Origin: Terriglobia bacterium
Lineage (GTDB): Bacteria > Acidobacteriota > Terriglobia > 20CM-2-55-15
DNA: 64,000 bases
Direction: 5' to 3'
Assembly (NCBI GenBank): GCA_965206125.1
Contig: CBDBIN010000045.1
Span: 772,531-836,530 of the forward strand
In this document: piece by piece, positions 10,302-44,859 of the stretch
Numbering within the stretch: position 1 is the first letter of the stretch
How the letters are laid out: every line of letters starts with the position of its first letter
Position numbers and translations under genes: made by a program
Notes under the pieces: model-generated
What the model was told of the DNA's origin: nothing
What the model saw: only the letters and a program-made list of their open reading frames with translations
Databases searched by the model: none

Positions 10302-11876
10302 CTACCTGCCGCCGCCGCTCGGATCCAGTACGGTGTTGTTGACGCAGGCCGTGGACCGGCAATCATGGGAGTTTTCCGAGCCCAGGGCCTCGAGCAGTTC
10401 GACGGTAGCCGGATGCAGGAGCGACTTTTCGCGCGGCCCGTTCGCCATGTCCGCCACGGTGTCTCCCATAGCATTGGGGGCTTCGGTCGCCGGTCGCGTT
10501 CCAGATAACCGACCCCGGGCCCTGGCCCTCACATCGCCGCCCTGAGCCACCAGGTACCTGATCAAATCATTATCGCCGACGTACGCCGCCCCGTGCAGCG
10601 GCGTGTAGGACCAATCGTCCTGGTGATGCACATCGGCACCCGCCTCTTCCACCAGATAGCGAGCGGCGGCCAGCCGTGAGTCGGGCAGAATATTCGAAGA
10701 TTGGTAGTCAAAACCGTAGCCCGTGACAACCATCAGCGGCGTCACGCCACCGGTGTTCGCGATAGTCGGGTTGGCTCCGTGGGCGGACAGCAGGCGCATC
10801 GCGACGATGTCGTGCGCTTGAGCGGCTCGCCAGAAGGCGGTGGCGCCGGCAGGGTCTATCCAGTCCCCACCGTACCGAAAAGTCCGGTACCACAGTCTCT
10901 TGCTCAGCCGGGCATTCACATCAGCGCCGCGGTCCAGCAGGTCGCTTACCAGGTCCAGATAGTCGGTCTTCTCTTCGCCCACGTCCGGCTGCGGATACCA
11001 CGTGTTGTTCCTCCATCGAATATCCACGACCGCGTAAAGCGGGGTCAGCCCATCGGCATTCATGACATTCACATCGGCACCGTTGTCGAGCAGGAACTTC
11101 GCGATGTCGAGGTTGGCGTTGATGATGGCTTCCGTCATCGGAGACGTCTGGTTCGCCGGGCTGAGGACGTTGACGTCGGCTCCACCCGCGACCAACTGGC
11201 GAATCGCATCCATATGACCGTCCCGGGCGCCGAAGTGCAGAGCTGTCAGCCCTCCGACGGGAAGAGTGGAACCCCCACGGCCCCGCCTGCCCGAGCTTCT
11301 GACCTCAGACACGTTCGTCGTGATGTCCGGGTCCGCGCCGTTATCGATCAGGACCTCGATCGTCGAGGCGCGATTCAGTGAGGCTGCGAACATCAGCGCT
11401 GTCTGTCCGTTGGTCACATCAGTTGCGTCGACGTCAGCGCCCTTTTCGACCAGCATCCGCACAGCTTCCGCGCTTCCGGAGGCCGCCGCGGTCATCAACA
11501 CGGTGGTTCCGTTCGTATTGGCCTCCGTCGCGCTGGCACCCGCATCCAGCAACGCACCGATGATGGGAGCGTTCCCGACCCTGGCCGCCATGGCAAGAGG
11601 CGTCATAGAGCCGATGCGGGTGGCGGCGGCGACGTCAGCACCCCGGTCGATCAGGAGTTCGACCAACTCGAGTTCGCCGTGGTAGGCCGCCCAATGGAGT
11701 GCCGTGCTCCCATCGCCCTGGGCGACGTTCACATCCGCGCCATCAGCCAGAAGTGTGCGCACCGCGTTGACATCGCCGCGCATCGCCGCATCGGCCAGGG
11801 GCGCGTCGTTGCTCGCCCCGGAAACTACCATCACGGTGACGAGCAGCCCAAGAAAGACGTATCCGAGTTTATTCAT
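10302..11876 (-). CDS. secreted ankyrin-repeat protein (module copy 1, third gene)
   Basis: 524 aa with a signal peptide and more than 10 ankyrin repeats (G.TALHWAAYHGELELVELLIDRGADVN...). The conserved C-terminal motif is GDTVADMANGP...LGSENSHDCRSTACVNNT. Confidence 0.85.
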   Translation of the reverse strand: MNKLGYVFLGLLVTVMVVSGASNDAPLADAAMRGDVNAVRTLLADGADVNVAQGDGSTALHWAAYHGELELVELLIDRGADVAAATRIGSMTPLAMAARVGNAPIIGALLDAGASATEANTNGTTVLMTAAASGSAEAVRMLVEKGADVDATDVTNGQTALMFAASLNRASTIEVLIDNGADPDITTNVSEVRSSGRRGRGGSTLPVGGLTALHFGARDGHMDAIRQLVAGGADVNVLSPANQTSPMTEAIINANLDIAKFLLDNGADVNVMNADGLTPLYAVVDIRWRNNTWYPQPDVGEEKTDYLDLVSDLLDRGADVNARLSKRLWYRTFRYGGDWIDPAGATAFWRAAQAHDIVAMRLLSAHGANPTIANTGGVTPLMVVTGYGFDYQSSNILPDSRLAAARYLVEEAGADVHHQDDWSYTPLHGAAYVGDNDLIRYLVAQGGDVRARARGRLSGTRPATEAPNAMGDTVADMANGPREKSLLHPATVELLEALGSENSHDCRSTACVNNTVLDPSGGGR

Positions 11877-11897
11877 GATTAGTTTCCCCTTCGCCGT

Positions 11898-13268
11898 TTA
11901 GATCGCAAGTACCCCGGTACTGTCGCCAATGTATTCCTGCTCAATCCCCAGCTTGCCAAGTATCCCCAGAAGGAGGTTCGACGTGGGCGTCTCATGAGCA
12001 GCCTTCACGTGTCGATTGCCCGAGAACTGTCCGTTGGCGTGACCCACGAGCAACATCGGAACGCGCTTGTGGGCATGAACGTTGGAGTCTCCCATGGGGC
12101 TGCCATACACGACCAGGGAGTGGTCCAGCAGGCTGCCATCGCCGTCAGGCGTATCCCTCAGTTTCTCCAGGAAGTACGTGAACACTTCCATGTGATACCG
12201 GTTGATCTTGGCGTACTCCGTTATCCCGCTCACCGATGATCCGTGATGCGACGCCGAGTGGAAAGGCGTGCTGTTGCCACTTTCGGCAAACACCCGGTTG
12301 CTCACGTCACGGCTGAGTTTGTGTGAGGTAACGCGGGTTACCTCGGACGAAAACGCGAGAACCTGCAGATCGAACATGATCTTGACGTGATCTTCCCAGG
12401 AGTCGGGCACACCGATCGGAGCGCTTGGCAACTCCCTGTGGACGCCACTGGCGTTGTACTGCTCGATTTGCTGGATGCGACGTTCGATCTCGCGCACGCT
12501 ATCGAGGTAGTCGTTCAGTCGGTTCCGGTCTCTCGTCCCGATATCCTGCCGCAAGCGATCGATTTCGAGCGTCACGCTGTCGAGAATGCTCTGGTTTGCC
12601 CTCCTGCGCGCCGCGCGAGCTTCGGGTGAGCCGCCGGCGCCGAACAGTTCCTCGAAAGCCATCCTGGGATCGATGATCATCGGCAGCGGAGTCGTGGGCG
12701 ACGACCAGCTGATCGAGTTCATGTAGACACAGCTGTAGTGGTAGCCGCAGTTACCTGAAGCGTCCAGGTTCTCGATACAGAGCTGAAGCGAAGGCAGAGG
12801 GGTATCCTGGCCAAACTCGTTGGCGTAGATCTGGTCGATCGACGTCCCACTCTGTACGTCCGAGCCCTCGGTCTGTTTCGGGTGCGCACCGGTCAGAAAT
12901 ACGGCGCTGGATCGAAAGTGGTCCGCACCCTCTTCCTCCGCGGTGTACGCTTCGGCCGGACGCTGGTCGGTGTGAGTGACCAGCGTGATGTAGTCCCGAA
13001 ACTGCTCGGCCGGTTCGAGGATCGTGCCGAATTCGAAATCGGACCCTTCGGTCGGGGGCATCCACATGTTCTGATCGATACCGTACTGGGTACTGCCCGC
13101 GCTTCCGTGCACCATCTCGAGACACGCCAGCTTGGTTCGAGGGTTGGCCGCGGTCTGACGCTGGGGCGTCTGAGCGGGAACCATCGATTCGAGCAGGGGC
13201 AACGACAGAACCGTGCCCACTCCCGTGAGAAACGTGCGTCGCGAAAGATGTTTCTTGGTCAAAAACAT
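11898..13268 (-). CDS. DUF1552 family Tat-exported protein (module copy 1, second gene)
   Basis: 456 aa. Twin-arginine signal SRRTFLTGVGTVLSLPLLESM. The conserved His-rich motif TPFHSASHH..AKINRYHM is shared by all four paralogs. Confidence 0.85.
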   Translation of the reverse strand: MFLTKKHLSRRTFLTGVGTVLSLPLLESMVPAQTPQRQTAANPRTKLACLEMVHGSAGSTQYGIDQNMWMPPTEGSDFEFGTILEPAEQFRDYITLVTHTDQRPAEAYTAEEEGADHFRSSAVFLTGAHPKQTEGSDVQSGTSIDQIYANEFGQDTPLPSLQLCIENLDASGNCGYHYSCVYMNSISWSSPTTPLPMIIDPRMAFEELFGAGGSPEARAARRRANQSILDSVTLEIDRLRQDIGTRDRNRLNDYLDSVREIERRIQQIEQYNASGVHRELPSAPIGVPDSWEDHVKIMFDLQVLAFSSEVTRVTSHKLSRDVSNRVFAESGNSTPFHSASHHGSSVSGITEYAKINRYHMEVFTYFLEKLRDTPDGDGSLLDHSLVVYGSPMGDSNVHAHKRVPMLLVGHANGQFSGNRHVKAAHETPTSNLLLGILGKLGIEQEYIGDSTGVLAI

Positions 13269-13301
13269 GGATCTCTGCTCCTTGTGATCTACGAGCTCTA
13301 A

Positions 13302-15710
13302 TTACTGCTGTTCCGCCGTCGGTATGTCGTCCGCCCTTCTCATCTGGAACGGAACGCTGTTTACGACTCCCTGGACGAACTCGGAAAAACGGTTGCCGTT
13401 GCCCGAGGCTTCTCGGGCGATCGACCGAATCGCTGGCATGTCGCGATAGTCCAGGACCCGGCCGACACCGTACTGCAGAAGATTCTCCGTAAAGGTCCCG
13501 ATGAACGCATCGGAATGATCCAGCATGGCCTGGCGCAGGCTGATCGGTCCGTCAAGTTCGGTCCCGTCGTACATCCTTGCCGACGGATCGATGAGGAACC
13601 CCCCATCGTTCTCGCGCCACTGTCCGATCGCGTCAAAGTTCTCGAGCGTCAGACCGATGGGGTCCATCATCTGGTGGCACGCCGCGCACGCGGGGTTTTC
13701 CCTGTGGTTCTCCAGCCGCTCCCTCACACTCCTCACGACCTGGTTGTCGACGGCCTCTTCGAGAGGCGGTACCACCGGGGGCGGGGGAGGAGGAGGCGAT
13801 CCGATCAGGACCTCCATCACATACTTGCCGCGCATGACCGGAGAGGTCCGGTTCGCCAGCGATGTGAGCGTCAGGACGCTGCCGTGCCCGAGCAGTCCAA
13901 ACCGGTTCGAATCTGTCAGGCTCACTCGCCGGAAACGGTTTCCAAGCACGTCGGGTATCCCGTAGTGCTTGGCGAGAATCTCATCGACGAACGTGTAATC
14001 CGCCGTCAGCAAGTCTGTAATGTTGCGATCCTCACGCAGAATGCTTTCAAACAGCATTTTCGTTTCACGGGTCATCGATTCCCCGAGATTCCGCGTGAAG
14101 TTGGGGAACACCAGAGACTCCGGGTCCGCTTCCTTGACTGTCTGCAGGCGCAGCCACTGGTACGCGAAGTTGTCCGCCAGGGCCGTCGCACGGTCATCGG
14201 CCAGCATGCGACCGACTTCCTGCTCAAGGATCGCCGGGTCCCGCAGTCGCTCCTCTGAGGCCAGTCTCAACAACCGATCGTCCGGCAGGCTGCTCCACAG
14301 GAAAAACGCGAGTCGCGAGGCCAGCTCCAGGTCGCTGATCCTGTAATTGGTACCGGGTCTCACGTTCGCCGGCACCTTTTCGAATCGAAACACGAACTCG
14401 GGGTGCGACAGGACGGCCTGCACAGCCATCTGAATGCCGCCCTCGAAATCTCCCTCTTCACGGCCGGCTCTGTAGTGGTTGATCAGGAACTCGACATCGT
14501 CATCGGTGATCGGCCGTCGGTACGCGTGACGTGCAAGGGTCGAAACGATCTGCTCGGCGCAGGGCAACTCTTCTGCGCTCGAAGACGGGGTGCAACTGAA
14601 TATCCTGAGACGGCTCGGCGTTTCCGACATGCCTGTCACGACGAAGGGGCCGGCGATCGTCAGCGTGTGCAGGTGGGGCAGTCCGATCAGACCGGGTACG
14701 GCCGCAGTGACGTCGACCATGGTCTGTTCGACCTGCCGGAACTGATCCTCGGTCGGCCCGTCGAATTTCTTGATGAACGCCGCCGCAATCCGGTGCTCAC
14801 CCGCCGTCACCGAGATGCGCTCGGTCGTCAGGACGTTCTCCAGTTCGCCGAGGGCCGGATCGATTTCAAAGATGGCCAACCGTGCTCCGTCTATCGAAAT
14901 CTCGATCTCCTGTCCCTGGAGGTTCTGGGGCAGGTTGCGGCCGAACAATTCGGTGATGAAGTCGTGGTAGAACGTCACCTTGAAGGTGTATTCCCCGTCG
15001 GCCGGGAAGTTGTAGACCACGGACGTCCCGCCGCGGGTCCCCAGCGGCGTGCCCTCGATGTGGCGCACCTGGTTGAAAACCTTCGGCACGGTGTACATGG
15101 ACATCGTGGGCGCGACCTCGGTATCGCCGACCGCCCGCCGGCTGATCTGGCTTGCCGCTCGCACATATCCCTGGACCAGAGCCGGGGTCACCGAAAGACT
15201 GTCGGCAATGTTGTCGAAGCCGCCGCTCATCTGGTCGGGAGGGAGAAGCGTCGACACATCCACGTCGAGGTCGAGCAGTTCTCGGACCGAATTGGCGTAC
15301 TCCGTCCTGTTCAGCCGGTGGAGTTCCGGTGCGCCCGCGTAGGGGTTGTCGATGGCGGAGCTGTCGACCCCCGATTCCAGCGCCCGGTAGAACGCCCTCG
15401 CGTCGGCGGCGTCGGGCCGGGGTATCCCCACTGGCGGCATCATGCCAGCCTTCAGCTTACGAATCACCGCCTCAGACTGCACAGCGTTCGTCCCCGGAGA
15501 GGCCAGATCCAACTCGGTCCATGAAAAGCCGCCGGCCCGGAGGTCGTCGTTGTGGCAACCCGCGCAATACTCGTCGACCAACGCCTGTTGTGAGGCCACC
15601 GACAGCGTCGACGTAGTCTGTCCAGAAACTGTCGCAGCCGGAATCAGCAACGCGAGGGCAAGGACGCCGGCACGAATGCAAAACGACTTCATCGAATCCC
15701 CTTTACGCAA
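13302..15710 (-). CDS. DUF1592/DUF1595/DUF1587/DUF1588-type (PSCyt/PSD domain) putative di-haem c-type cytochrome, secreted (module copy 1, first gene)
   Basis: 802 aa with a Sec signal peptide. The N-terminal CxxCH is EYCAGCHNDDL and the C-terminal CxxCH is ENPACAACHQMMDPIGL. A poly-Pro linker GSPPPPPPPVVPPLEE is present. The architecture is that of the Planctomycetes-type cytochrome that partners DUF1552 proteins. Confidence 0.85.
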   Translation of the reverse strand: MRKGDSMKSFCIRAGVLALALLIPAATVSGQTTSTLSVASQQALVDEYCAGCHNDDLRAGGFSWTELDLASPGTNAVQSEAVIRKLKAGMMPPVGIPRPDAADARAFYRALESGVDSSAIDNPYAGAPELHRLNRTEYANSVRELLDLDVDVSTLLPPDQMSGGFDNIADSLSVTPALVQGYVRAASQISRRAVGDTEVAPTMSMYTVPKVFNQVRHIEGTPLGTRGGTSVVYNFPADGEYTFKVTFYHDFITELFGRNLPQNLQGQEIEISIDGARLAIFEIDPALGELENVLTTERISVTAGEHRIAAAFIKKFDGPTEDQFRQVEQTMVDVTAAVPGLIGLPHLHTLTIAGPFVVTGMSETPSRLRIFSCTPSSSAEELPCAEQIVSTLARHAYRRPITDDDVEFLINHYRAGREEGDFEGGIQMAVQAVLSHPEFVFRFEKVPANVRPGTNYRISDLELASRLAFFLWSSLPDDRLLRLASEERLRDPAILEQEVGRMLADDRATALADNFAYQWLRLQTVKEADPESLVFPNFTRNLGESMTRETKMLFESILREDRNITDLLTADYTFVDEILAKHYGIPDVLGNRFRRVSLTDSNRFGLLGHGSVLTLTSLANRTSPVMRGKYVMEVLIGSPPPPPPPVVPPLEEAVDNQVVRSVRERLENHRENPACAACHQMMDPIGLTLENFDAIGQWRENDGGFLIDPSARMYDGTELDGPISLRQAMLDHSDAFIGTFTENLLQYGVGRVLDYRDMPAIRSIAREASGNGNRFSEFVQGVVNSVPFQMRRADDIPTAEQQ

Positions 15711-28108: not shown

Positions 28109-29770
28109 TCACTGATCCACGGTCTTGACGACACAGGTGGAAGCCCGGCAGTAGTCCGAGTTTTCCGAACCCAACATCTCGAGAAATTCCACGGTCTCGG
28201 GATATTGCATGTTGTGCGCCTTAGGTCCGTTAGCCATGTCCGCCACCGTGTCACCGGTTCCGTCGACTTCCTCGTCAGCCCGACCTGCTCCACCGAAGAT
28301 CTTATTGGCGCGAGCATTGATATCCGCACCGGCTGCGATCAGATAGAGGATCAGGTCATGCTCGACTGTCAGTGCGGCGCCGTGCAGTGGCGTATACCCG
28401 TCTTTGTCCGGCAGGTTCACGTCAGCCCCGGTTGCCTCCACGAGGTAGCGGACGGCGTCGAGCCGGGCGTCGGGAGCAAAATGGGTGACCTGCGGTTCGA
28501 AGCCAAAACCCGCGGCAGCCAGAAGCGGTGACGCGCCACCCTTGGTCGGAATGGCCGGGTTTGCGCCGGCAGCGAGAAGGAGTTTCATCGCGGGCACATC
28601 ATTCGCTTTTGCCGCAAGCCAGAAAGCCGTCCCACCGATCGGCCGAATCCAGTCCCCATGGTTCGTCCGGTACAGCGGTTTCTTTTCGAGCCGTCGGTCG
28701 GGCTCCGCTCCGTTCTCGAGGAGCGCGGCAACCAGATCCAGATAGTCGGTCTGCTCTTCTTCGATACTCGGCGCCGGATACCAGGTACGCTCCGCCCACC
28801 GCGCGTCGATCGTCGCGTACAGCGGCGCCACTCCGTCCTTATTGGCCAGGTTGGGATCGGCGCCTTGTTGGAGGATGAAAGCGGCGACGTCGAGGCTGGA
28901 GTTGATGATTGCGGCATTCAATGGGCTGGCGCCATCCGAAGCTGCCACCAGGTCCACGTCGGCACCTGCGTCGACCAACTCTCTGGTGACGTCCAGGTGG
29001 CCTTCCCGAGCCGCAAAGTGCAGCGCGCTCAAGCCCCCAGAGAACCGCTCTTCACGATCCTCACGAACCATCGCGTTGCCGTCTTCGTCACGGTAACGAT
29101 CCCGCCAGGGGATGACCTCCGACAGTTTCGTCAGTGCATTGGGATCGGCGCCCGCCGCCCCAAGCATGCGGACGACGTCAGCCCTGCCCCTTGCTGCGGC
29201 GAACATCATAGCCGTCTGCTCGGTCGTCGTGTCGGCGGCGTTCACGTCAGCGCCTTGGGCGAGCAGTAACTCTACGGCATCGGTCTTACCCGAAGCCGCG
29301 GAATACATCAGCGGCGTCGTGCCGTTCGCATCCGGTGCATTCGCATCGCTACCTGCCTCTAACAGCAACTCGAGCATATCGGCGTTGCCGTTCTTCGAAG
29401 CCATGAGCATTGGGGTCAGGTCACCCAGGCGGGTCTCTACACCAACGTTCGCGCCGGCTTCGATCAGCAAACGGGCCATCTCGAGGTCTTCGCGGTATGC
29501 AGCCCAGTGCAGGGCCGTGGTGCCGTCTCCCTGCGGAGCGTTCACATCCGCACTCCGACCGAGTAGCGATCGCACGGACTCAATGTCGCCCCGCATGGCC
29601 GCATCGGCGATAGGAGCATCCACCGCGCCGCCGTATGCGATGGCCGGTCCGGCCGCGACGGTCAGCAGTACCACCAATAACGCAAGGATCGTGCCTTTCC
29701 CGAACATGTGTCGTTCCTTCAAGAGCTGTTGGCTTTTAGCCTTTGGCTTCAAATGAGATCCAATAGCCAA
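28109..29770 (-). CDS. secreted ankyrin-repeat protein (module copy 2)
   Basis: 553 aa with a signal peptide and ankyrin repeats. The C-terminal motif is GDTVADMANGPKAHNMQYPETVEFLEMLGSENSDYCRASTCVVKT. Confidence 0.85.
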   Translation of the reverse strand: MAIGSHLKPKAKSQQLLKERHMFGKGTILALLVVLLTVAAGPAIAYGGAVDAPIADAAMRGDIESVRSLLGRSADVNAPQGDGTTALHWAAYREDLEMARLLIEAGANVGVETRLGDLTPMLMASKNGNADMLELLLEAGSDANAPDANGTTPLMYSAASGKTDAVELLLAQGADVNAADTTTEQTAMMFAAARGRADVVRMLGAAGADPNALTKLSEVIPWRDRYRDEDGNAMVREDREERFSGGLSALHFAAREGHLDVTRELVDAGADVDLVAASDGASPLNAAIINSSLDVAAFILQQGADPNLANKDGVAPLYATIDARWAERTWYPAPSIEEEQTDYLDLVAALLENGAEPDRRLEKKPLYRTNHGDWIRPIGGTAFWLAAKANDVPAMKLLLAAGANPAIPTKGGASPLLAAAGFGFEPQVTHFAPDARLDAVRYLVEATGADVNLPDKDGYTPLHGAALTVEHDLILYLIAAGADINARANKIFGGAGRADEEVDGTGDTVADMANGPKAHNMQYPETVEFLEMLGSENSDYCRASTCVVKTVDQ

Positions 29771-29793
29771 TAGCTATTGGCTAATGACCTGTG

Positions 29794-31164
29794 TCAGATC
29801 GAATACGTCGCCGTACTGTCGCCGACGCTTTCGACATCGACACCCAGGCTGTGCATCGTGGTCAGCAGCGCATTCGCCTGCGGCGCGTCATCAGCGGCCC
29901 GGACGTGGGTATTGCCCTGCACCCTTCCGGAAGCGTGACCCATCAGGACCACGGGAACACGCTTATGACCATGAATGTTGCCGTCTCCCATCGGGCTGCC
30001 GTAGAAGACCAGCGAGTGGTCGAGCAGGTTCCCGTCACCGTCGGGAGTGTTTTTGAGCTTGTCGATCAGATGCTTGAGCATCGTGACGTGATGGCGATTG
30101 ATCTTCGCGAAGTCCTCAATCATCTCGGGCTTCTGCTGGTGGTGCGAGGCCGAGTGGAACGGGGTATCGCTACCGCTCTCGGGGAATGTCCGCGGGCTGA
30201 CATCACGGGCCATCTTGAGGGTGGACACGCGAGTAACGTCCGCCGAGAAGGCCAGCACCTGCAGGTCGAACATGAGCTTGATGTGCTCTTCCCAGGAATC
30301 CGGCACGCCGACCGGCGCATCCGGCAATTCCCGTTCCGCCCCGGAGGCGTTGTATTCCTCGATCCTCTGGATTCGGCGTTCGATCTCCCGGACATTTTCA
30401 AGATAGTCATCGAGTCGATTCTGATCCGCCTGTCCGATATCGGTCCGAAGCCGAGCTACGGAGTTCGTGATGCGATCGAGGATGCTCCGGTTGACCTGCT
30501 GCCGGGCTACACGTTCTTCAGGGGTGCCGCCGGTTCCGAACAGCTCTTCGAACGCCAGGCGTGGGTCCTGAATCATCGGCAGCGGGGTCGTCGGCGACGC
30601 CCAGCTAAGCGTGTCCATGTAAACGCAGCTGTAGTGGTAGCCGCAGGCGCCGGAGGTGTCCTGGTTCTCAATGCTGAGGTTGATCGATGGCAGCGGTGTG
30701 TCCTGACCAAACTTCTGGGCGTACATCTGATCGATTGACGTTCCGTTGTAGACGTCTGACCCCTCGGTCTGCTTCGGGTGCGCTCCGGTCAGGAACACGG
30801 CGCTCGAACGAAAATGGTCGGCTCCGACCTCTTCCGCCGTCATAGGATCCGCCTGACCGCAATCCGTGTTGCTGATGATCGTCATGTAGTCGCGGTACGA
30901 CTCCAGTGGTTCGAGGATCTGGGTGACGTCGAAATCGTGGCCCTCGGCCGCGGGTGCCCAGAGGTTTTTCTCGGTCCCGTACATCGTGCTGCCCGAATTG
31001 CCGTGAACGATCTCAATGGCCGCGAAACGGCTCCTTGGAGCCGCGGCCGTCTGTGCCAGCGCGGTCCGTGCGGGCACCATGGATTCGAGCAAGGGCAAGG
31101 CAACAACTACCCCCGCGCCCTTTAGCATCGTTCGTCTGGAAATGTTCTTCCTGGTGATGAACAT
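29794..31164 (-). CDS. DUF1552 family Tat-exported protein (module copy 2)
   Basis: 456 aa. Tat signal SRRTMLKGAGVVVALPLLESM. TPFHSASHHQQ motif. Confidence 0.85.
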   Translation of the reverse strand: MFITRKNISRRTMLKGAGVVVALPLLESMVPARTALAQTAAAPRSRFAAIEIVHGNSGSTMYGTEKNLWAPAAEGHDFDVTQILEPLESYRDYMTIISNTDCGQADPMTAEEVGADHFRSSAVFLTGAHPKQTEGSDVYNGTSIDQMYAQKFGQDTPLPSINLSIENQDTSGACGYHYSCVYMDTLSWASPTTPLPMIQDPRLAFEELFGTGGTPEERVARQQVNRSILDRITNSVARLRTDIGQADQNRLDDYLENVREIERRIQRIEEYNASGAERELPDAPVGVPDSWEEHIKLMFDLQVLAFSADVTRVSTLKMARDVSPRTFPESGSDTPFHSASHHQQKPEMIEDFAKINRHHVTMLKHLIDKLKNTPDGDGNLLDHSLVFYGSPMGDGNIHGHKRVPVVLMGHASGRVQGNTHVRAADDAPQANALLTTMHSLGVDVESVGDSTATYSI

Positions 31165-31221
31165 GATCCGGCTCTCCTTGTGATTATCCAGCGATCTTCA
31201 GAAACTCGCCTGAATTCTACC

Positions 31222-33606
31222 TTATCTGCCCTCGGCTGCCTCAATAGAACTTGGGCTCTCCAGCCTCATCTGAAACGGCGTGCTCTCGATGATGCTCATA
31301 ATAAAGGCCGAGAAAGCGTTTCCCTCCTCGGACGCAGACCCCGCGATGGACCGGACGGTCGGCATGTCCCGGTAGTCCAACACCCTACCGAGGGCGTAGG
31401 AAAGGAGCTTTTCGGTAAAGCTTCCGAGAAAAGCATCGGAACGGCCTACGATAGCCTCGCGGAGGCTACTCGGACCGTCCAGTTCGGTCCCGTCATACAT
31501 CCGGGAACCCGCGTCGATCCGGAAACCGCCGTCCGTCGCGCGCCAGTACCCGATGGCATCGAAGTTCTCCAGCGTCAATCCAATGGGGTCCATGATCTGG
31601 TGGCACGCGTTGCATGCCGGGTTTTCGCGGTGCGCGACCATTCGGTCGCGAACGGTCAGCACGGCTTCGTTATTGACGCTTTCCTCGAACGGCGGCACGA
31701 CCGGGGGAGGAAGCGGCGGAGGTGAGCCGAGCAGAACTTCCAGCACGTACTTTCCGCGCGCGACCGGCGAAGTCCGGTTCGACAGCGAAGTCACTGCCAG
31801 TACGGCTCCTTTGCCCAGCAGTCCGAACCGGTTCGGATCCTCCAGGGATACTCTGCGGAAGCGGCTCCCCACGATGTCGGGAATCCCGTAGTGAGTGGCG
31901 AGCGGTTCGTTGACGAACGTATAGTCCGCGGTGAGCAGATCGAGTACGCTTCGATCCTCTCGCACGATCGTATCAAACAGGAGCTCGACCTCCCGCTTCA
32001 TCGATCGCGCCAGGTTCCTTGTGAACTCGGGAAACAGCGTTCCCTCCGGATGAACCTCTTCAATGCTGGTCAGCCTCAGCCACTGCATCGCGAAGTTTGT
32101 CGCCAGCGTCTCGGAACGGGGATCGGCCAACATGCGCCTCACCTGCTCGGCGAGGACTCCCTCCTCGTGAAGCCCGCTTTGACTCGCGATCTCGATCAGT
32201 TCGGCGTCAGGCGCAGAGTTCCACAGGAAGTACGACAACCGAGAAGCCAGTTCCAGATCGCTGACGCGGAAGCTATCACCGGATCCGACACCGGCGGGAA
32301 CGCGCTCGAAACGGAAGACGAACTCGGGCATGGCTATGAGCGTCTGCACGGCCGTTCGGATTCCGGTTTCGAAGTCACCTCTCCCGACGCCCATCCCGTA
32401 CATGAACATCAATTCTTCGAGATCCGCCGGCGTCGCAGGTCGTCGGAAGGCCTGGGTTGCAAGACTCGAAAGGATCTCCCGCGCGCAGGGTCCCTCCTCA
32501 CTCGCATCGGTCGGGTAACACGTGAAGATTTTCCGGCGGCTGTCGGTATCGGACACGCCCGTGACCTTCAGCGGCCCCGTAATGGTGAACGTCCTCAGGT
32601 GGGGCGGCAGTGAGGTTCCGAAGTTCCTGCCGTAATCGAGATCCACCAGCGTCTGCTCCACGACCCGATAGGGGTCCTCGCCGGCACCCTCGTACTTGGA
32701 CACGAACGCCGCCGAAACCCGGCGCGCTCCAGCCTGGATTTCGATCGCATCCGTCACCATCACGCCATCGCTGAGTTCGTTCATCAGCGGATCGATCGTG
32801 AACACGACAACTCGCTCCCCGTCGATGGAAATCTCGAGTTCCTGGTACTGCAACGATTCCGGCAGCTCTCGGCCGATGAGGTCTCCGGTATCGACGTACC
32901 AGAGCTTCATCTGGAAAGCGTATTCGCCGTCGGCCGGGAAGTTATGAATGACGGACATCCCTCCTCGTGTCCCGAACGGGGTGCCCTCGACGTGCCGCAT
33001 CTGGTTGACGACTTTAGGGACATCGTATTGCTTGACGGCGACAACGGCCTCCGGGTCTCCGACCGCAAGGCGCGCGATTGTGTCGGCAGCGCGGACGTAC
33101 GCCTGCATGAGTGCCGGCGTCACGGTCAGCGCCTCAGACATGTTGTCGAAACCACCCGTGCGGCCATCGGGCGGGAGCAGCGCCGCAACATCCACGTCGA
33201 GACTGAGCAGATCTCGGATCGAGTTGCGGTACTCCTTGCGGTTCACCCGGTGAAGGTCAGGCGCGCTGACGTTGGGGTTGTCGGCGGCAACCCGATCGAT
33301 CCGGGCTTCCAGTCCAGCGGCAAGGTTTCTGAGCGAGTCCTCGTCGGGTCTGGGCGCGCCTGCCGGGGGCATCATGCCGGCCCGCAGCTTTCGGATAACT
33401 TCCTCCGCCTGTCGGGCGTTAGCGGCGGGGTTCGCCACATCAATTTCGCTCCACGAGAAGCCGCCCTCTCTCAGGGCATCATTGTGGCAGTAGGCACAGT
33501 ACTCGCCAACCAGGGCCTCGTGGGATTCGACGGATGACCCCTGACCGTAGGCCACGGGGGCCAGCGCGAAGATAACCGGGCCTATAGCGGCCAACATCGC
33601 TCTCAT
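31222..33606 (-). CDS. DUF1592-type putative di-haem cytochrome c (module copy 2)
   Basis: 794 aa. EYCAYCHNDAL and ENPACNACHQIMDPIGL motifs. SPPPLPPPVVPPFEE linker. About 75% identical to copy 3 over the N-terminal 200 aa by eye. Confidence 0.85.
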   Translation of the reverse strand: MRAMLAAIGPVIFALAPVAYGQGSSVESHEALVGEYCAYCHNDALREGGFSWSEIDVANPAANARQAEEVIRKLRAGMMPPAGAPRPDEDSLRNLAAGLEARIDRVAADNPNVSAPDLHRVNRKEYRNSIRDLLSLDVDVAALLPPDGRTGGFDNMSEALTVTPALMQAYVRAADTIARLAVGDPEAVVAVKQYDVPKVVNQMRHVEGTPFGTRGGMSVIHNFPADGEYAFQMKLWYVDTGDLIGRELPESLQYQELEISIDGERVVVFTIDPLMNELSDGVMVTDAIEIQAGARRVSAAFVSKYEGAGEDPYRVVEQTLVDLDYGRNFGTSLPPHLRTFTITGPLKVTGVSDTDSRRKIFTCYPTDASEEGPCAREILSSLATQAFRRPATPADLEELMFMYGMGVGRGDFETGIRTAVQTLIAMPEFVFRFERVPAGVGSGDSFRVSDLELASRLSYFLWNSAPDAELIEIASQSGLHEEGVLAEQVRRMLADPRSETLATNFAMQWLRLTSIEEVHPEGTLFPEFTRNLARSMKREVELLFDTIVREDRSVLDLLTADYTFVNEPLATHYGIPDIVGSRFRRVSLEDPNRFGLLGKGAVLAVTSLSNRTSPVARGKYVLEVLLGSPPPLPPPVVPPFEESVNNEAVLTVRDRMVAHRENPACNACHQIMDPIGLTLENFDAIGYWRATDGGFRIDAGSRMYDGTELDGPSSLREAIVGRSDAFLGSFTEKLLSYALGRVLDYRDMPTVRSIAGSASEEGNAFSAFIMSIIESTPFQMRLESPSSIEAAEGR

Positions 33607-33642: not shown

Positions 33643-35265
33643 CTAATTCTGCGATCCATCCCGTGTCTTGATCACGCACGTCGACGCCCTGCAGTTGTTC
33701 GAGTTCTCCGAACCCAGACTTTCGAGCAATTCGACAGTGGCGGGGTACTGCAGGTTGTGAGCACGCGGACCATTCGCCATGTCGGCGACCGTATCGCCCG
33801 TTTCCCCCTCGACGTTGAGATCACGTCTGCCGAGACCGCCAAAGACCATGTAGGCGCGGGCCCCAGGGTCCCCACCGGCCGCCATCAAGTACCTGATCAA
33901 CTCGTGGTTCTCAGTCAGTGCCGCTCCATGCAGCGGCGTGTACCCGTTGTTGTCCCGCGAGGTCACATCCAGGCCGATTTCTTCGATCAGGTACCGGACA
34001 GCGGCCACTCTCTGACCCGGCGCAAAGTTCGTCACCTGGGGTTCAAGACCGAAACCGGCCGCCACCATCAGTGAGGTCGCGCCTTGATTCGATCTGGCGG
34101 TGGGATCCGCGCCGGCGGCGATGAGCAACTTCATGGCCGGAACGTCGTTGGCTTTTGCAGCCAGCCAGAACGGGGTTGCACCGGCCGGCCTGGCCCAGTC
34201 GCCGTGCTCGGTCCGGTACCACGGTTTGTTCTCCAGGATCTGATTGACCTCGGCACCACGTTCGATGAGCGCCCTGGCAAGGTCCAGATAGTTGGTCGCT
34301 TCCTGATCGATACTCGGTGCCGGGTACCAGGTGCGCTCTGCCCACCTGGCGTCGATCGTCGCGTATAACGGGGCCTGTCCGTCGATGTTGGGCAGGTTGG
34401 GATCGGCTCCCTCTTCGACCAGGTACCTGGCGATGTCGCTATGGCCGTTGATGATGGCCGAAGTCAGAACGCTGGTTTCATCGGCAACCGAAACGCGGTC
34501 GATGTCCGCTCCGGAGTCCAACAGTGCGCGGATGGCGTTCATATGGCCCTGACGCGCCGCAAAGTGCAGCGCGGTCATCCCACCCATTAACTCTGCATCG
34601 TAATCTTCGCGGATCTGGATGCTGCCGTCCTCATCACGGTATTTCTGATCGAACGTGATGACCTCGCTCACCTTCGTAACCACGTCCAGGTCCGCGTCCG
34701 CAGCGGCAAGCACCCGGATTGCGCCAGCCCGGTCGAGGGCCGAGGCGAACATCGTCGCCGTCTGCCCGTTCGTGGTGTCTCTGGCGTTCACGTCAGCGCC
34801 ACCGTCGAGCAGCGTCTGAACCGCGGCTGCCTCGCCGGCAGCCGCAGCGTACATCAACAAGGTTGTCCCGTTCGTGTCGGTGGAGTTCGCATCAGCCCCG
34901 GCTTTGATCAGCAGCTCGACCATGGCGGCGTTCCCATTCTTGGCAGCCATCACGATGGGGATGAGCTCGTTCACCCGAGTCCTGGCCCCGACGTCCGCTC
35001 CCGCTGCGAGCAGCAGGGTCGCCATCTCCAGGTCGTCCCTGTAGGCCGCCCAGTGCAGCGCTGTTGTGCCGTCACCCTGCGGCGCATTCACATCCGCTTT
35101 CTGCTCCAGCAGGCTGCGTACGGCCTCGATGGCGCCCCGCATGGCCGCGTCGGCGAGCGGTGAGTCCGCTTCGGATGCCAGCGCTGTCGAGCCTGCGGCT
35201 GCAAGAAGCATCGCCATGCACGACCCGAGAATTGCGTGTTTACCGAACATGTATCGCCCCTTCAA
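33643..35265 (-). CDS. secreted ankyrin-repeat protein (module copy 3)
   Basis: 540 aa. The C-terminal motif is GDTVADMANGPRAHNLQYPATVELLESLGSENSNNCRASTCVIKT. The stop lies 36 nt upstream of the start of the copy-2 cytochrome gene. Confidence 0.85.
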   Translation of the reverse strand: MKGRYMFGKHAILGSCMAMLLAAAGSTALASEADSPLADAAMRGAIEAVRSLLEQKADVNAPQGDGTTALHWAAYRDDLEMATLLLAAGADVGARTRVNELIPIVMAAKNGNAAMVELLIKAGADANSTDTNGTTLLMYAAAAGEAAAVQTLLDGGADVNARDTTNGQTATMFASALDRAGAIRVLAAADADLDVVTKVSEVITFDQKYRDEDGSIQIREDYDAELMGGMTALHFAARQGHMNAIRALLDSGADIDRVSVADETSVLTSAIINGHSDIARYLVEEGADPNLPNIDGQAPLYATIDARWAERTWYPAPSIDQEATNYLDLARALIERGAEVNQILENKPWYRTEHGDWARPAGATPFWLAAKANDVPAMKLLIAAGADPTARSNQGATSLMVAAGFGLEPQVTNFAPGQRVAAVRYLIEEIGLDVTSRDNNGYTPLHGAALTENHELIRYLMAAGGDPGARAYMVFGGLGRRDLNVEGETGDTVADMANGPRAHNLQYPATVELLESLGSENSNNCRASTCVIKTRDGSQN

Positions 35266-35365
35266 GACTCTGTTGGCCTTTGGCTGTTAGCTTCAAGACC
35301 GCTAGCTTCAAATTAGATCCGATAGCCAAAAGCCAATCGCTAATCGCCAAAGGCTAGTCGCTAGA

Positions 35366-36736
35366 TCAGATCGAAAACGTCCCAGTGCTGTCGCCGATGC
35401 TTTCCCTGTGCACCCCGAGGCTGTGCAGGACCGTCAGCAAAGCGTTGGCCTGCGGAGTATCCTCGGCGGCACGCACGTGCCGGTTGCCGGACACGGTCCC
35501 CGACGCATGACCGGCCAGGACGAACGGAATCCGCTTGTGGCCGTGGACATTGCTGTCGCCCATCGGACTGCCGTACAGGATGAGCGAGTGGTCCAGCAGG
35601 TTGCCGTCACCGTCCGGCGTATTCCGCAACTTGTCCAGAAAGTAGGTCAGGACATCGATATGGTGCCGGTTGATGAGGGCGAAGTCTTCGATCTGGGCAG
35701 GGTCCTGCTGGTGGTGTGACGCCGAGTGGAACGGTGCGGGGGTGCCGCTGTCCGGGTACGTCCGCTGACTGGTGTCGCGGCCAAGTTTCAGGGAGGACGC
35801 GCGAGTGACGTCCGCCGAGAAAGCCAGCGCCTGGAGGTCGTACATGATCTTGACGTGCTCCTCCCACGAATCAGGCACGCCGACCGGAGCGTTCGGCAGT
35901 TCTCTCTGCGCGCCCGACGCGTTGTACTCCTCGATCCTCTGAATCCGACGCTCGATCTCACGTACGTTCTCGAGATAATCGTCGAGCCGACTTCGGTCCA
36001 CGGGGTCCAGGTCGTTCCGCACGCGGGCCACCGAGGTTGTGATGCGGTCGAGGATGCTGCGATTGACTTCGCGCCTCGCGGCCCGCTCTGCCGGCGTGCC
36101 GCCCGATCCGAACAGTTGTTCGAAAGCCAGGCGCGGGTCCGGCGTCATCGGCAGCGGCGTCGTCGCGGACGACCAACTCAGAGTCTCCATGTAGACACAG
36201 CTGTAGTGGTAGCCGCAGGCGCCGGTGGTTTCCTGGTTCTCGATGCTGAGCTGAATCGAAGGGACCGGCGTATCCTGACCGAACTCCTGAGCGTAGAGTT
36301 GGTCGACCGACGGCCCGCAGTAAACGTCGGAACCCTCGGTCTGTTTCGGATGACCGCCGGTCAGGAACACCGCGCTCGACCGGAAATGATCGGCGCCGAC
36401 CTCCTCGGGCGTAAAGGGATCGGCCGGCCCGCAGTCGGTATGGGAGATGATCGTCGTGTAGTCGCGGAACGGTTCCATCGGTTCGAGGATCTGGCTGAAC
36501 TCGAAATCTCGGCCTTCCGCAGCCGGAGCCCAGAGGGCTTTTTCGGTCCCGTACATGGTGCTCCCGGCCGAACCATGGACGATCTCGATCCCGGCGAAGC
36601 GGCTTGGCGGAACCGCCGCCGTGTTTCTCAGCGGAGTCTGGGCGGGCACCATGGATTCCAGGAACGGCAGCGCGACCGCAACGCTGGCGCCATGTAGCAT
36701 CGTCCGTCTTGAAATGTGTTTCTTGGTGATAAACAT
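35366..36736 (-). CDS. DUF1552 family Tat-exported protein (module copy 3)
   Basis: 456 aa. Tat signal SRRTMLHGASVAVALPFLESM. APFHSASHHQQ motif. Confidence 0.85.
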   Translation of the reverse strand: MFITKKHISRRTMLHGASVAVALPFLESMVPAQTPLRNTAAVPPSRFAGIEIVHGSAGSTMYGTEKALWAPAAEGRDFEFSQILEPMEPFRDYTTIISHTDCGPADPFTPEEVGADHFRSSAVFLTGGHPKQTEGSDVYCGPSVDQLYAQEFGQDTPVPSIQLSIENQETTGACGYHYSCVYMETLSWSSATTPLPMTPDPRLAFEQLFGSGGTPAERAARREVNRSILDRITTSVARVRNDLDPVDRSRLDDYLENVREIERRIQRIEEYNASGAQRELPNAPVGVPDSWEEHVKIMYDLQALAFSADVTRASSLKLGRDTSQRTYPDSGTPAPFHSASHHQQDPAQIEDFALINRHHIDVLTYFLDKLRNTPDGDGNLLDHSLILYGSPMGDSNVHGHKRIPFVLAGHASGTVSGNRHVRAAEDTPQANALLTVLHSLGVHRESIGDSTGTFSI

Positions 36737-36782
36737 GGATCCGGCTCTCCTTAATTTTCTAATCCCTTCGTTCCTTCCCGTC

Positions 36783-39370: not shown

Positions 39371-39493
39371 GGGGACAGGCTCCCCTGTCCCCTCTTGGAC
39401 CATACAGCTATTGCAGCTTGCGAAAACCGGCTTAAGAAATCAGTAACTGAAATTAGTGTAAGAGCGAGGTAGGGACAGGGGAGCCTGTCCCCT
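39371..39493. repeat. MITE-like unit: two inverted copies of a 22-bp self-complementary hairpin flanking a ~77-bp AT-rich core
   Basis: GGGGACAGG-ctcc-CCTGTCCCC lies at 39371-39392. GGGACAGG-ggag-CCTGTCCC lies at 39472-39491. The loops ctcc and ggag are reverse complements, so the two hairpins are inverted copies of one another. The element sits between the methyltransferase stop and the module-3 promoter region. Confidence 0.6.
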
Positions 39494-40859: not shown

Positions 40860-40953
40860 GACTACATTGCTCTTTGAGCTACGCGCGGTGCGAAAAAACC
40901 TCCGGGCAAACACTGTGCCGCGCTCCGGCCAAGCCCCCGGACAATCCTGGCTA

Positions 40954-44856: not shown

Positions 44857-44859
44857 GTA

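What the first reader, a model, noticed from the sequence alone, without database searches (positions are those of the whole stretch)
13302..15710. All four DUF1592 proteins keep two CxxCH motifs and a polyproline linker, consistent with a di-haem c-type cytochrome
The N-terminal motif is E[YH]C[AVL][GYA]CHN[DE] and the C-terminal motif is ENP[AVS]C[NA][AI]CH..MDP[IL]G. Both are invariant across copies, at 13302-15710, 31222-33606, 36783-39230 and 41057-43522. A run of 6-7 prolines (SPPPPPPPVVPP or MPPPPPPANVP) precedes the C-terminal haem motif. Conservation of both haem sites in every paralog argues that they are functional. It also suggests intramolecular or intermolecular electron transfer, possibly to the His-rich DUF1552 partner.
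Basis: partly seen in the sequence, partly recalled or inferred. Interest (0 to 1): 0.55.

Follow-up and report, generated by a model that had tools for sequence, protein, structure and literature searches.

The report
Known putative two-haem cytochrome family
The four genes are new acidobacterial copies of a very large, already described family of exported proteins that carry two haem-attachment motifs; haem at the second motif has been predicted in print but never demonstrated.

Summary
All four ORFs (794-821 aa, 42-61% identical) keep an N-terminal and a C-terminal CxxCH and a proline tract. Chance predicts about 0.001 CxxCH per protein.

Pfam calls the C-terminal domain PSCyt3 ("planctomycete-specific cytochrome"), and CAZy calls the whole C-terminal module X132. 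Published work on Cellvibrio Cbp2D and Teredinibacter proteins already says this CxxCH "would be expected to be haem bound". No one has shown it.

The second CxxCH is kept in 120/120 acidobacterial, 120/120 sphingomonad and 120/120 planctomycete homologues. It is also kept in 150/150 cluster representatives and 121/122 genome ORFs. It is more universal than the first motif.
- **N-terminal motif.** It sits in a class-I cytochrome c-like domain with an invariant Met-Pro-Pro.
- **C-terminal motif.** It sits in an all-helical fold with no solved relative.
- **Corrections.** The proline tract is a conserved PxPP motif inside the domain, not a linker. Met682 is not conserved. His669 (H-x5-CxxCH) nearly always is.
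- **Context.** Each gene heads a cassette with a TAT-exported DUF1552 protein and an exported ankyrin-repeat protein. The ankyrin partner appears unreported.

This is an ordinary new member of a known, uncharacterised family.

The parts
13302..15710 (-). Copy A of the DUF1592/PSCyt3-family protein (802 aa from TTG; probable true start is the ATG at 15692, giving 796 aa). Architecture: signal peptide, cytochrome c-like domain, PSD3, beta-sandwich, PSD5, PSD4, PSCyt3, PSD2.
   Evidence: ORF. Pfam hits far above cut-offs. A 100%-identical 796-aa database protein. AF2 model with pLDDT 81.9 and pTM 0.81.
15552..15566 (-). First haem-attachment motif, CAGCH (C49, C52, H53).
   Evidence: Translation. 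Invariant in the 4 paralogues and in 52 homologues. Aligned with the CxxCH of planctomycete PSCyt1 domains and of solved class-I cytochromes c.
15432..15440 (-). Met91-Pro-Pro, the candidate distal (sixth) ligand of haem 1.
   Evidence: Translation. M-P-P is invariant across acidobacterial and planctomycete N-terminal domains. It aligns with the Met-containing 'G..MP' segment of Kuenenia cytochrome c-552 and of bc1 cytochrome c subunits.
13767..13796 (-). Proline tract PPPPPPPVVP (residues 639-648). Its universal core is P641-x-P643-P644.
   Evidence: Translation. It lies inside the Pfam PSCyt3 match, residues 603-702. P641, P643 and P644 are kept in 24/24 sequences from six clades. Modelled at pLDDT 74-90.
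13653..13706 (-). Family signature H669-x5-C675-x2-C678-H679-x3-D683-P-x-G686, the second (candidate) haem-attachment site.
   Evidence: Translation. CxxCH kept in 120/120, 120/120, 120/120 and 150/150 homologues and in 121/122 genome ORFs. His at -6 kept in 507/510.
31222..33606 (-). Copy B (794 aa), with CAYCH and CNACH.
36783..39230 (-). Copy C (815 aa), with CVYCH and CNACH.
41057..43522 (+). Copy D (821 aa), with CLACH and CAICH. This is the most divergent copy (42% identity to A).
11898..13268 (-). DUF1552 (HXXSHH) partner of copy A. It has a twin-arginine signal (SRRTFL) and starts 33 nt after the DUF1592 gene.
   Evidence: Pfam E 4e-81. His content 4.2% and HSASHH at residue 337.
29794..31164 (-). 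DUF1552 partner of copy B.
35366..36736 (-). DUF1552 partner of copy C.
43456..44856 (+). DUF1552 partner of copy D. The real start is probably the ATG at about 43519, which overlaps the stop codon of copy D.
10302..11876 (-). Exported ankyrin-repeat protein, the third gene of cassette A.
   Evidence: Ankyrin Pfam hits. N-terminal hydrophobic signal segment.
28109..29770 (-). Ankyrin-repeat protein of cassette B.
33643..35265 (-). Ankyrin-repeat protein of cassette C.
44860..46440 (+). Ankyrin-repeat protein of cassette D.

Best explanation
The four ORFs are paralogous, Sec-exported members of the PSCyt1/X183 - PSD3 - beta-sandwich - PSD5 - PSD4 - PSCyt3 - PSD2 family. Pfam calls it DUF1592/DUF1588, and CAZy calls the C-terminal module X132.

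**Haem 1.** The roughly 90-residue N-terminal domain is a class-I-type monohaem cytochrome c. Haem is attached to C49/C52, with H53 proximal and M91 distal. It serves as a peripheral electron-transfer module. It is optional in the family: fused here, absent in sphingomonads (which encode a separate cytochrome c' instead), and multiplied in Cbp2D-like proteins.

**Haem 2.** The C-terminal motif belongs to the universal family core H-x5-C-x2-C-H-x3-D-x2-G, inside an all-helical module with no solved relative. It most likely carries a second covalently bound haem. The sixth ligand is not Met682. His669 is the best candidate, which would give a bis-His haem. The conserved PxPP motif and conserved Arg residues (603, 627, 663) probably line this pocket.

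**Partners.** This inner haem most likely exchanges electrons with the adjacent TAT-exported DUF1552 protein, the probable catalytic subunit. The exported ankyrin-repeat protein is an accessory or scaffold component.

**Shown:** motif conservation, domain identities, export signals and gene linkage. **Inferred:** haem occupancy, ligation, the complex, the direction of electron flow and the substrate.
For: **Family membership**
- Five Pfam domains score far above their cut-offs in all four copies.
- Published descriptions name the family 'planctomycete-specific cytochrome c' and note the adjacent DUF1552 gene (PMC5615132).

**N-terminal domain**
- C, C, H and M-P-P are the only invariant residues shared with planctomycete PSCyt1 domains.
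- A profile of the domain finds almost only class-I cytochromes c in the PDB. Examples are a bc1 cytochrome c subunit (E 0.006) and Kuenenia c-552 (E 0.008), aligned through CxxCH and the Met segment.
- Pfam Cytochrome_CBB3 scores 20.6-24.4 bits here, and it is a precomputed hit in many homologues.
- The AF2 topology is helix - CxxCH - helix - Met - helix.

**C-terminal site**
- CxxCH is kept in 120/120 close homologues, 120/120 sphingomonad proteins (their only CxxCH), 120/120 planctomycete proteins and 150/150 representatives. The representatives come from a family of 21,587 clusters. It is also kept in 121/122 ORFs from 77 genome loci.
- His at -6 is kept in 507/510.
- The His directly after the second Cys is invariant. 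A plain CxxC redox or metal motif would not require it.
- Every cysteine outside the signal peptide (six per copy) is invariant among the four paralogues.

**Redox context**
- Sphingomonad operons read hypothetical - short DUF1592 - DUF1552 - cytochrome c' (+ cytochrome b561).
- A Pseudoalteromonas relative fuses a glucose/sorbosone (PQQ-type) dehydrogenase domain, CBM26 and a cytochrome c domain to the same module. That cytochrome domain matches the solved haem-bound CjX183 (7B21, E 5.7e-8).

**Literature**
- CjX183 binds haem c with His/Met ligation and reduces LPMOs (PMC8981238).
Against: - No experiment anywhere shows haem in a PSCyt3/X132 module. The authors who studied these proteins could not express it.
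- The C-terminal 441 residues have no structural analogue in the PDB (best Foldseek E 1.7) and no sequence match. The site is therefore not in a recognisable cytochrome fold.
- No conserved Met is available as distal ligand.
- His669 is only six residues before the first Cys. It is missing in 3 of 150 representatives.
- One natural variant has CAACY instead of CAACH (L001).
- N-terminal domain hits to Pfam cytochrome models are below the curated cut-off in all four copies.
- hhalign against cytochrome c551 and CjX183 gave low probabilities (9% and 18%).
- I could not inspect model coordinates, so pocket geometry and the distance between the two haem sites are untested.
Confidence: 0.6

Rival explanations
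1. Monohaem protein. Only the N-terminal domain binds haem. The C-terminal H-x5-C-x2-C-H cluster is a non-haem metal site (Zn, Fe or Cu) or a purely structural element of the helical module.
For: - The module has no cytochrome-like fold or solved relative.
- Two His plus two Cys within 11 residues resemble a small metal-binding knuckle.
- There is no conserved Met ligand.
- Haem has never been demonstrated for X132/PSCyt3.
Against: - The His is invariant at the position directly after the second Cys. That is the hallmark of haem c attachment and an awkward geometry for one metal ion bound by adjacent residues.
- Sphingomonad proteins keep only this motif and sit next to cytochrome c' and b561 genes.
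- The protein is exported to the compartment where haem is attached.
Confidence: 0.27
2. The C-terminal CxxC is a redox-active dithiol/disulfide (thioredoxin-like chemistry) rather than a cofactor site.
For: - CxxC at the start of a helix (residues 673-688) is the usual position for redox-active disulfides.
- The protein is periplasmic.
Against: - There is no thioredoxin-like fold; the module is all-helical.
- The invariant His after the second Cys and the His at -6 are not explained by this reading.
- The residues between the two cysteines vary freely (AA, NA, AI, AS, AG, AV, MD, QS). Redox-tuned CxxC motifs do not usually do this.
Confidence: 0.06
3. The motifs are chance or relic features without function.
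For: Only that nothing has been tested experimentally.
Against: - Expected number of CxxCH per protein is about 0.001.
- The motif is conserved in more than 500 sampled homologues across at least six bacterial phyla or classes, down to 27% identity.
Confidence: 0.01

Closest known systems
Pfam PSCyt3 (DUF1588) / PSD4 (DUF1592) 'group III planctomycete-specific cytochrome' proteins with an adjacent DUF1552 gene (Studholme 2004 as cited in PMC5615132; He et al. 2017)
   Same: - All five Pfam domains (PSD3, PSD5, PSD4, PSCyt3, PSD2) occur in the same order and score far above cut-off.
- A DUF1552 gene lies directly downstream.
- The CxxCH is in PSCyt3.
   Different: - The host is Acidobacteriota, not a member of the Planctomycetes-Verrucomicrobia-Chlamydiae (PVC) group.
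- The proteins are shorter (about 800 aa versus about 1380 aa in planctomycetes).
- The N-terminal cytochrome domain scores below the PSCyt1 and Cytochrome_CBB3 cut-offs.
- There is a third cassette gene (ankyrin).
- Four cassettes lie within 36 kb.
CAZy X183-[DUF1587]-X132 redox proteins: Cellvibrio japonicus Cbp2D and Teredinibacter turnerae TERTU_2913/TERTU_3803 (PMC8981238, PMC10916295, PMC12542752)
   Same: - The core is the same: a class-I cytochrome c domain, then PSD3/DUF1587, then a large C-terminal module with a single CxxCH.
- The link was tested through the Pseudoalteromonas sp. Bsw20308 protein, listed as [CBM26]x4[X183][X132]. The matching locus is hit by the window protein (E 6e-25) and carries PSD3, PSD5, PSD4, PSCyt3 and PSD2.
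- The X183 domain is proven to bind haem c with His/Met ligation (7B21, 8Q1V).
   Different: - Those proteins are secreted, carry CBM2/CBM26, YceI-like (X158) or dehydrogenase domains, and are tied to cellulose/LPMO biology.
- The window proteins have none of these. Their central beta-sandwich only resembles CBM6/35/36.
- Their N-terminal domain is PSCyt1-like and not detectably X183-like (hhalign probability 18%).
- I inferred that ALQ09882.1 and the RefSeq protein in L081 are the same protein from strain and architecture. This was not shown by sequence.
Class-I monohaem cytochromes c (c551/c552, ScyA, bc1 cytochrome c subunit; Pfam Cytochrome_CBB3 PF13442)
   Same: The N-terminal domain has the same features:
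- CxxCH after an N-terminal helix.
- A Met ligand in a G-x-M-P-P segment.
- A C-terminal helix.
- PDB profile hits that are almost all of this class.
   Different: - Scores are marginal (E 0.006-0.07; Pfam 20.6-24.4 bits against a cut-off of 27).
- The domain is fused to a body of about 700 residues.
PSCyt1-PSCyt2-PSD1 proteins with an adjacent TAT-exported DUF1501 protein (Kamneva et al. 2012, PMC3542564)
   Same: The logic is the same: a multidomain protein with cytochrome c motifs encoded next to a TAT-exported protein of unknown function. The authors proposed it as an electron-transport module.
   Different: The domain families differ (PSCyt2/PSD1 and DUF1501 rather than PSCyt3/PSD4 and DUF1552). 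No homology between the two systems was tested here.
True dihaem periplasmic enzymes (bacterial cytochrome c peroxidase / MauG family)
   Same: They are periplasmic proteins with two CxxCH motifs and intramolecular electron transfer between a high-potential His/Met haem and a second haem.
   Different: There is no sequence or fold similarity. Only weak N-terminal profile hits appear at E > 1, and Foldseek finds no relative for the C-terminal module. In those enzymes both haems sit in class-I-like domains.

Membership tests
DUF1592/PSCyt3 family (Pfam group III 'planctomycete-specific cytochrome'; CAZy X132 module) | PSD4 (PF07631) and PSCyt3 (PF07627) both present above the gathering score | tested here: met
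   PSD4 scores 149-159 bits (cut-off 23.3). PSCyt3 scores 109-121 bits (cut-off 27). This holds in all four copies.
DUF1592/PSCyt3 family (Pfam group III 'planctomycete-specific cytochrome'; CAZy X132 module) | Accessory domains PSD3, PSD5 and PSD2 in the canonical order | tested here: met
   All three are above cut-off, in the order PSD3-PSD5-PSD4-PSCyt3-PSD2.
DUF1592/PSCyt3 family (Pfam group III 'planctomycete-specific cytochrome'; CAZy X132 module) | Conserved CxxCH inside the PSCyt3 domain | tested here: met
   C675/C678/H679 lie within the PSCyt3 match, residues 603-702. The same motif occurs in all sampled clades.
DUF1592/PSCyt3 family (Pfam group III 'planctomycete-specific cytochrome'; CAZy X132 module) | Adjacent DUF1552 (HXXSHH) gene | tested here: met
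   Present directly downstream of all four copies and in the related loci.
Class-I c-type cytochrome (N-terminal domain) | CxxCH haem-attachment motif | tested here: met
   C49-x-x-C52-H53 is invariant.
Class-I c-type cytochrome (N-terminal domain) | Distal Met ligand at the conserved position | tested here: met
   M91-P-P is invariant and aligns with the Met segment of solved cytochromes c. That it actually ligates the iron is inferred.
Class-I c-type cytochrome (N-terminal domain) | Significant match to a curated cytochrome c model | tested here: inconclusive
   Cytochrome_CBB3 scores 20.6-24.4 bits against a cut-off of 27, and PSCyt1 17.7 against 22. PDB profile E-values are 0.006-0.07. hhalign against c551 gives 9% and against CjX183 18%. 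Many close homologues carry a precomputed PF13442 hit.
Class-I c-type cytochrome (N-terminal domain) | Export to the compartment where haem c is attached | tested here: met
   All four N-termini show a charged n-region, a hydrophobic core and a small-residue cleavage region when read by eye. No signal-peptide predictor was available.
Class-I c-type cytochrome (N-terminal domain) | Covalently bound haem | not testable with these tools
   This needs haem staining, mass spectrometry or spectroscopy.
   Kept in 120/120, 120/120, 120/120, 150/150 and 121/122.
   Foldseek of the model of residues 362-802 against the PDB gives a best E of 1.7. Profile searches of the PDB give no hit.
   Met682 is not conserved. 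His669 at -6 is conserved in 507/510, but its geometry could not be checked.
   No experimental data exist for any PSCyt3/X132 module.

The most novel reading that the evidence does not exclude
PSCyt3/X132 is a previously unsolved haem c-binding fold. Its H-x5-CxxCH signature would make a bis-His haem that is wired directly to the TAT-exported DUF1552 protein. In Acidobacteriota and Gemmatimonadota this pair has recruited an exported ankyrin-repeat protein, giving a new three-component periplasmic redox enzyme that is amplified in tandem. DUF1552 would then be the overlooked catalytic partner of the Cbp2D-type proteins implicated in polysaccharide oxidation.
Probability: 0.3. Interest if true: 0.6.

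Novelty: new member of a known kind. Interest (0 to 1): 0.3.

Why it matters
The family is very large. The C-terminal module alone matches 21,587 clusters at 50% identity. It is spread over many phyla and has no assigned function.

Its only studied relatives are Cbp2D and the Teredinibacter redox proteins. These matter for bacterial cellulose degradation and for supplying electrons to lytic polysaccharide monooxygenases.

Showing that the C-terminal motif binds haem, and that DUF1552 is its partner, would give this large block of uncharacterised proteins a first biochemical foothold. The finding as written adds no new idea. Its value lies in the family-wide conservation test, in the H-x5-CxxCH and PxPP signature, and in the conserved ankyrin partner.

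Tried and rejected
**Searches that found nothing useful**
- Sequence and profile searches of the PDB with the full protein, the 52-sequence profile and the C-terminal profile. These gave only a weak N-terminal cytochrome hit.
- Foldseek of the full model found only CBM6/35/36-like matches to the central beta-sandwich.
- Foldseek of residues 362-802 found nothing.
- NCBIfam has no model for the DUF1592 or DUF1552 proteins.
- A DUF1552 profile against the PDB, and Pfam at E up to 10, gave no relative. Its fold remains unknown here.
I do not claim the domain is an X183 domain.

**Readings rejected**
- Met682 as axial ligand, because it is Ile, Thr, Val or Phe in most relatives.
- The proline tract as a flexible linker, because it is conserved and lies inside the domain.
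- The long antisense ORFs at 13515-14258 and 14403-15524 as genes. They are typical of 61.5% G+C DNA and overlap a gene that is strongly supported by homology.

**Limits of the sampling**
- The genome-collection scan used patterns from the N-terminal motif. It is therefore biased for the first CxxCH and is used only as evidence for the second.
- Model coordinates are not exposed by the tools, so no distances could be measured.
Full report
**Observation**

The four ORFs are present at the stated coordinates. They encode 794-821-residue proteins that align end to end at 42-61% identity to the first. C49/C52/H53 and C675/C678/H679 (numbering of the 13302-15710 ORF) are invariant. I checked the window coordinates by translation.

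From composition alone, each protein should contain about 0.001 CxxCH. Apart from one Cys in the signal peptide of A and D, each protein has only six cysteines. Four are in the two motifs and two form an invariant C373/C384 pair.

There are two small corrections. Only copies A and D have an unbroken run of 6-7 prolines, while B and C have PPPLPPP. The TTG start at 15710 is probably wrong, because the identical database protein starts at the ATG at 15692.

**What the proteins are**

Pfam places all four firmly in one architecture: PSD3 (DUF1587), PSD5 (DUF1595), PSD4 (DUF1592), PSCyt3 (DUF1588) and PSD2 (DUF1585). Scores are four- to six-fold above the cut-offs. The N-terminus gives sub-threshold hits to Cytochrome_CBB3 and PSCyt1. 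Both the proline tract and the second CxxCH lie inside the PSCyt3 match (residues 603-702).

These domains were described in Rhodopirellula and are called "planctomycete-specific cytochrome c" domains. He et al. 2017 note that PSCyt3 always pairs with PSD4 and that such genes sit next to DUF1552 genes, with "nothing known about their functions" (PMC5615132).

A second literature thread uses different names. CAZy calls the class-I cytochrome domain X183 and the large C-terminal module X132. These occur in Cellvibrio japonicus Cbp2D and Teredinibacter turnerae TERTU_2913/3803 (PMC8981238, PMC10916295).

I tied the two threads together through a Pseudoalteromonas sp. Bsw20308 protein.
- It is listed as [CBM26]x4[X183][X132].
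- The matching plasmid locus is hit by the window protein (E 6e-25).
- It carries Cytochrom_C-PSD3-PSD5-PSD4-PSCyt3-PSD2.
- Its cytochrome domain matches the solved haem-bound CjX183 (7B21, E 5.7e-8).

Rajagopal et al. 2024 already write that the X132 CxxCH "would be expected to be haem bound". They add that X132 has no characterised homologue.

It is. The counts are:

| Sample | C-terminal CxxCH kept |
|---|---|
| Closest homologues (59-100% identity) | 120/120 |
| ORFs from 77 Acidobacteriota/Gemmatimonadota genome loci | 121/122 |
| Sphingomonadales proteins (about 550 aa, about 27% identity) | 120/120 |
| Planctomycete proteins (about 1380 aa) | 120/120 |
| Best cluster representatives for the PSCyt3-PSD2 region | 150/150 |

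- The genome loci were selected through N-terminal patterns, so they are unbiased for the second motif.
- In the sphingomonad proteins this is the only CxxCH.
- Of the planctomycete proteins, 109 also have the N-terminal PSCyt1 motif.
- The representatives come from a family of 21,587 clusters at E ≤ 1e-3.
- The single exception is a 74%-identical Terriglobia genome copy with CAACY (codon TAT).

The C-terminal motif is thus more universal than the N-terminal one.

**Residues conserved around the second motif**

I aligned 24 sequences from Acidobacteriota, Sphingomonadales, Planctomycetota, Bacteroidota (Chondrinema), Pseudoalteromonas and Novosphingobium. Within the PSCyt3 region, the following residues are kept in at least 23 of 24: R603, G605, L607, L613, T622, R627, G628, P641, P643, P644, V647, R663, H669, C675, C678, H679, D683, G686, E690 and G696.

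Three points follow.
- The proline tract reduces to a conserved P-x-P-P motif. It is modelled at pLDDT 74-90 and lies inside the domain, so it is not a linker.
- Met682 of "MDP" is Ile, Thr, Val or Phe in most relatives. It is not a general ligand.
- A His six residues before the first Cys is kept in 507/510 sequences. The family signature is H-x5-C-x2-C-H-x3-D-x2-G.

**N-terminal domain**

Between the acidobacterial domains and planctomycete PSCyt1 domains the only invariant residues are C, C, H, M-P-P and one alanine. That is the haem-attachment motif plus a distal Met.

A profile of this domain retrieves almost only class-I cytochromes c from the PDB. Examples are a bc1 cytochrome c subunit (E 0.006) and Kuenenia c-552 (E 0.008), aligned through both CxxCH and the Met segment. 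The AF2 topology is helix - CxxCH - helix - Met - helix.

Scores are marginal. hhalign against c551 and CjX183 is weak. I therefore call the domain class-I-like and PSCyt1-like, not a proven X183 domain.

**Structure**

The full-length AF2 model is confident (pLDDT 81.9, pTM 0.81). Foldseek against the PDB finds only CBM6/35/36-like matches to the central beta-sandwich, about residues 200-360.

A separate model of residues 362-802 (pLDDT 83.5) has no PDB analogue (best E 1.7). The second CxxCH starts a long helix (673-688) in an all-helical module of unknown fold. This neither supports nor excludes haem. It means the site is not a conventional cytochrome domain.

**Context**

Each copy is followed by two genes.
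- After 33-57 nt, or overlapping, comes a DUF1552/HXXSHH gene. It has a twin-arginine signal and 3.2-4.4% His.
- After that comes a gene for an ankyrin-repeat protein of about 530 residues with a signal peptide.

The window therefore holds four three-gene cassettes between 10.3 and 46.4 kb. In the 77 related genome loci, 76 of 87 assessable DUF1552 genes are followed by an ankyrin gene. Ten more have one upstream, and cassettes are often tandem.

More distant clades lack the ankyrin gene but always keep DUF1552. Sphingomonad operons lack the N-terminal cytochrome domain. They encode a cytochrome c' just downstream of DUF1552, and in Sphingobium also a cytochrome b561. This is the best contextual support for an electron-transfer role.

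**Mechanism proposed**

- Haem 1 (His53/Met91, class-I type) is an optional peripheral electron-transfer module.
- Haem 2 is attached at C675/C678/H679 in the universal core. His669 is the candidate sixth ligand, and the PxPP motif and conserved Arg residues line the pocket.
- Haem 2 exchanges electrons with the TAT-exported DUF1552 protein, the probable catalytic subunit.
- The ankyrin protein is an accessory or scaffold component.

Conservation, domain identity, export signals and linkage are shown. Haem occupancy, ligation, the complex, the direction of flow and the substrate are inferred.

I put about 0.85 on haem at site 1, about 0.6-0.65 on haem at site 2 and 0.6 on the overall picture. 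The main rival (0.27) is a monohaem protein whose C-terminal H/C/C/H cluster binds another metal or is structural.

**Verdict**

These are new acidobacterial members of a known, very large and still uncharacterised family. The points that go beyond what I found in print are:
- the family-wide counts;
- the H-x5-CxxCH and PxPP signature;
- the exclusion of Met682 as a ligand;
- the link between the Pfam and CAZy names;
- the conserved ankyrin partner.

Noticed in passing
window 10302-15710, 28109-33606, 33643-39230, 41057-46440: Four copies of a three-gene cassette lie within 36 kb: DUF1592-family protein, TAT-exported DUF1552, and an exported ankyrin-repeat protein of about 530 aa. In 77 related Acidobacteriota/Gemmatimonadota loci, 76 of 87 assessable DUF1552 genes are followed by an ankyrin gene and 10 more have one upstream, often in tandem cassettes. 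A Novosphingobium plasmid also has the ankyrin gene. I found no paper mentioning this ankyrin partner.
   Followed up: partly
window about 14630-15110 (residues about 200-360 of copy A): The central beta-sandwich of the AF2 model resembles carbohydrate-binding modules CBM6/CBM35/CBM36 (Foldseek probability up to 1.0, E 1e-3 to 1e-2, TM about 0.5 on the target). Pfam has no model for this region.
   Followed up: partly
L001 8020-8034 (Terriglobia MAG OZ253536.1): This 74%-identical copy, the closest among the 77 genome loci, reads CAACY (codon TAT) instead of CAACH. It is the only exception to the second CxxCH among more than 600 sequences. It could be a real variant or a long-read error.
   Followed up: partly
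L079 2739-8134, L082 2440-7973, L084 4793-9513: Sphingomonad relatives are short (about 550 aa) and have no N-terminal cytochrome domain and no beta-sandwich. They sit in an operon reading hypothetical (about 400 aa, no Pfam hit) - DUF1592 - DUF1552 - cytochrome c', with a cytochrome b561 as well in Sphingobium.
   Followed up: partly
L081 2-6707 (Pseudoalteromonas sp. Bsw20308 plasmid): A giant 'starch-binding protein' fuses a glucose/sorbosone (PQQ-type) dehydrogenase domain, fn3, Big_2, CBM26 and a CjX183-like cytochrome c to the PSD3-PSD5-PSD4-PSCyt3-PSD2 module. A DUF1552 gene follows 16 nt downstream. The papers on Cbp2D/X132 proteins never mention DUF1552.
   Followed up: partly
L078 1158-5242 (Planctomyces sp. 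SH-PL62 plasmid): Here the family gene is split into a PSCyt1+PSD3 ORF and an overlapping PSD5-PSD2 ORF. Close relatives have one protein of about 1357 aa, so this is probably a frameshift. A 3-keto-disaccharide hydrolase gene lies next to the DUF1552 gene.
   Followed up: no
window 39492-40913 (-): A 473-aa protein with a carnosine N-methyltransferase-like (CARME) / class-I methyltransferase domain sits between cassettes C and D, which are divergently oriented.
   Followed up: no
window 10302-10400, 28109-28200, 33643-33740 (C-termini of ankyrin proteins A-C): Ankyrin proteins A-C share a C-terminal tail ...LGSENS..CR[AS][ST][AT]CV..T with two cysteines. Copy D lacks this tail and also lacks an insertion of about 18 residues (WYPxP...EE.T).
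   Followed up: no
window 13515-14258 (+), 14403-15524 (+), 15152-15616 (+): Long ORFs lie antisense to copy A. They are Arg/Pro/Gly-rich products typical of 61.5% G+C DNA and overlap a gene with overwhelming homology support, so they are almost certainly not genes.
   Followed up: partly
window 43456-43522: The listed GTG start of the DUF1552 gene of cassette D overlaps copy D by 67 nt. An ATG at about 43519 (MIITKKAISRRTML...) matches the N-termini of the other three copies and overlaps the upstream stop codon, which suggests translational coupling.
   Followed up: partly
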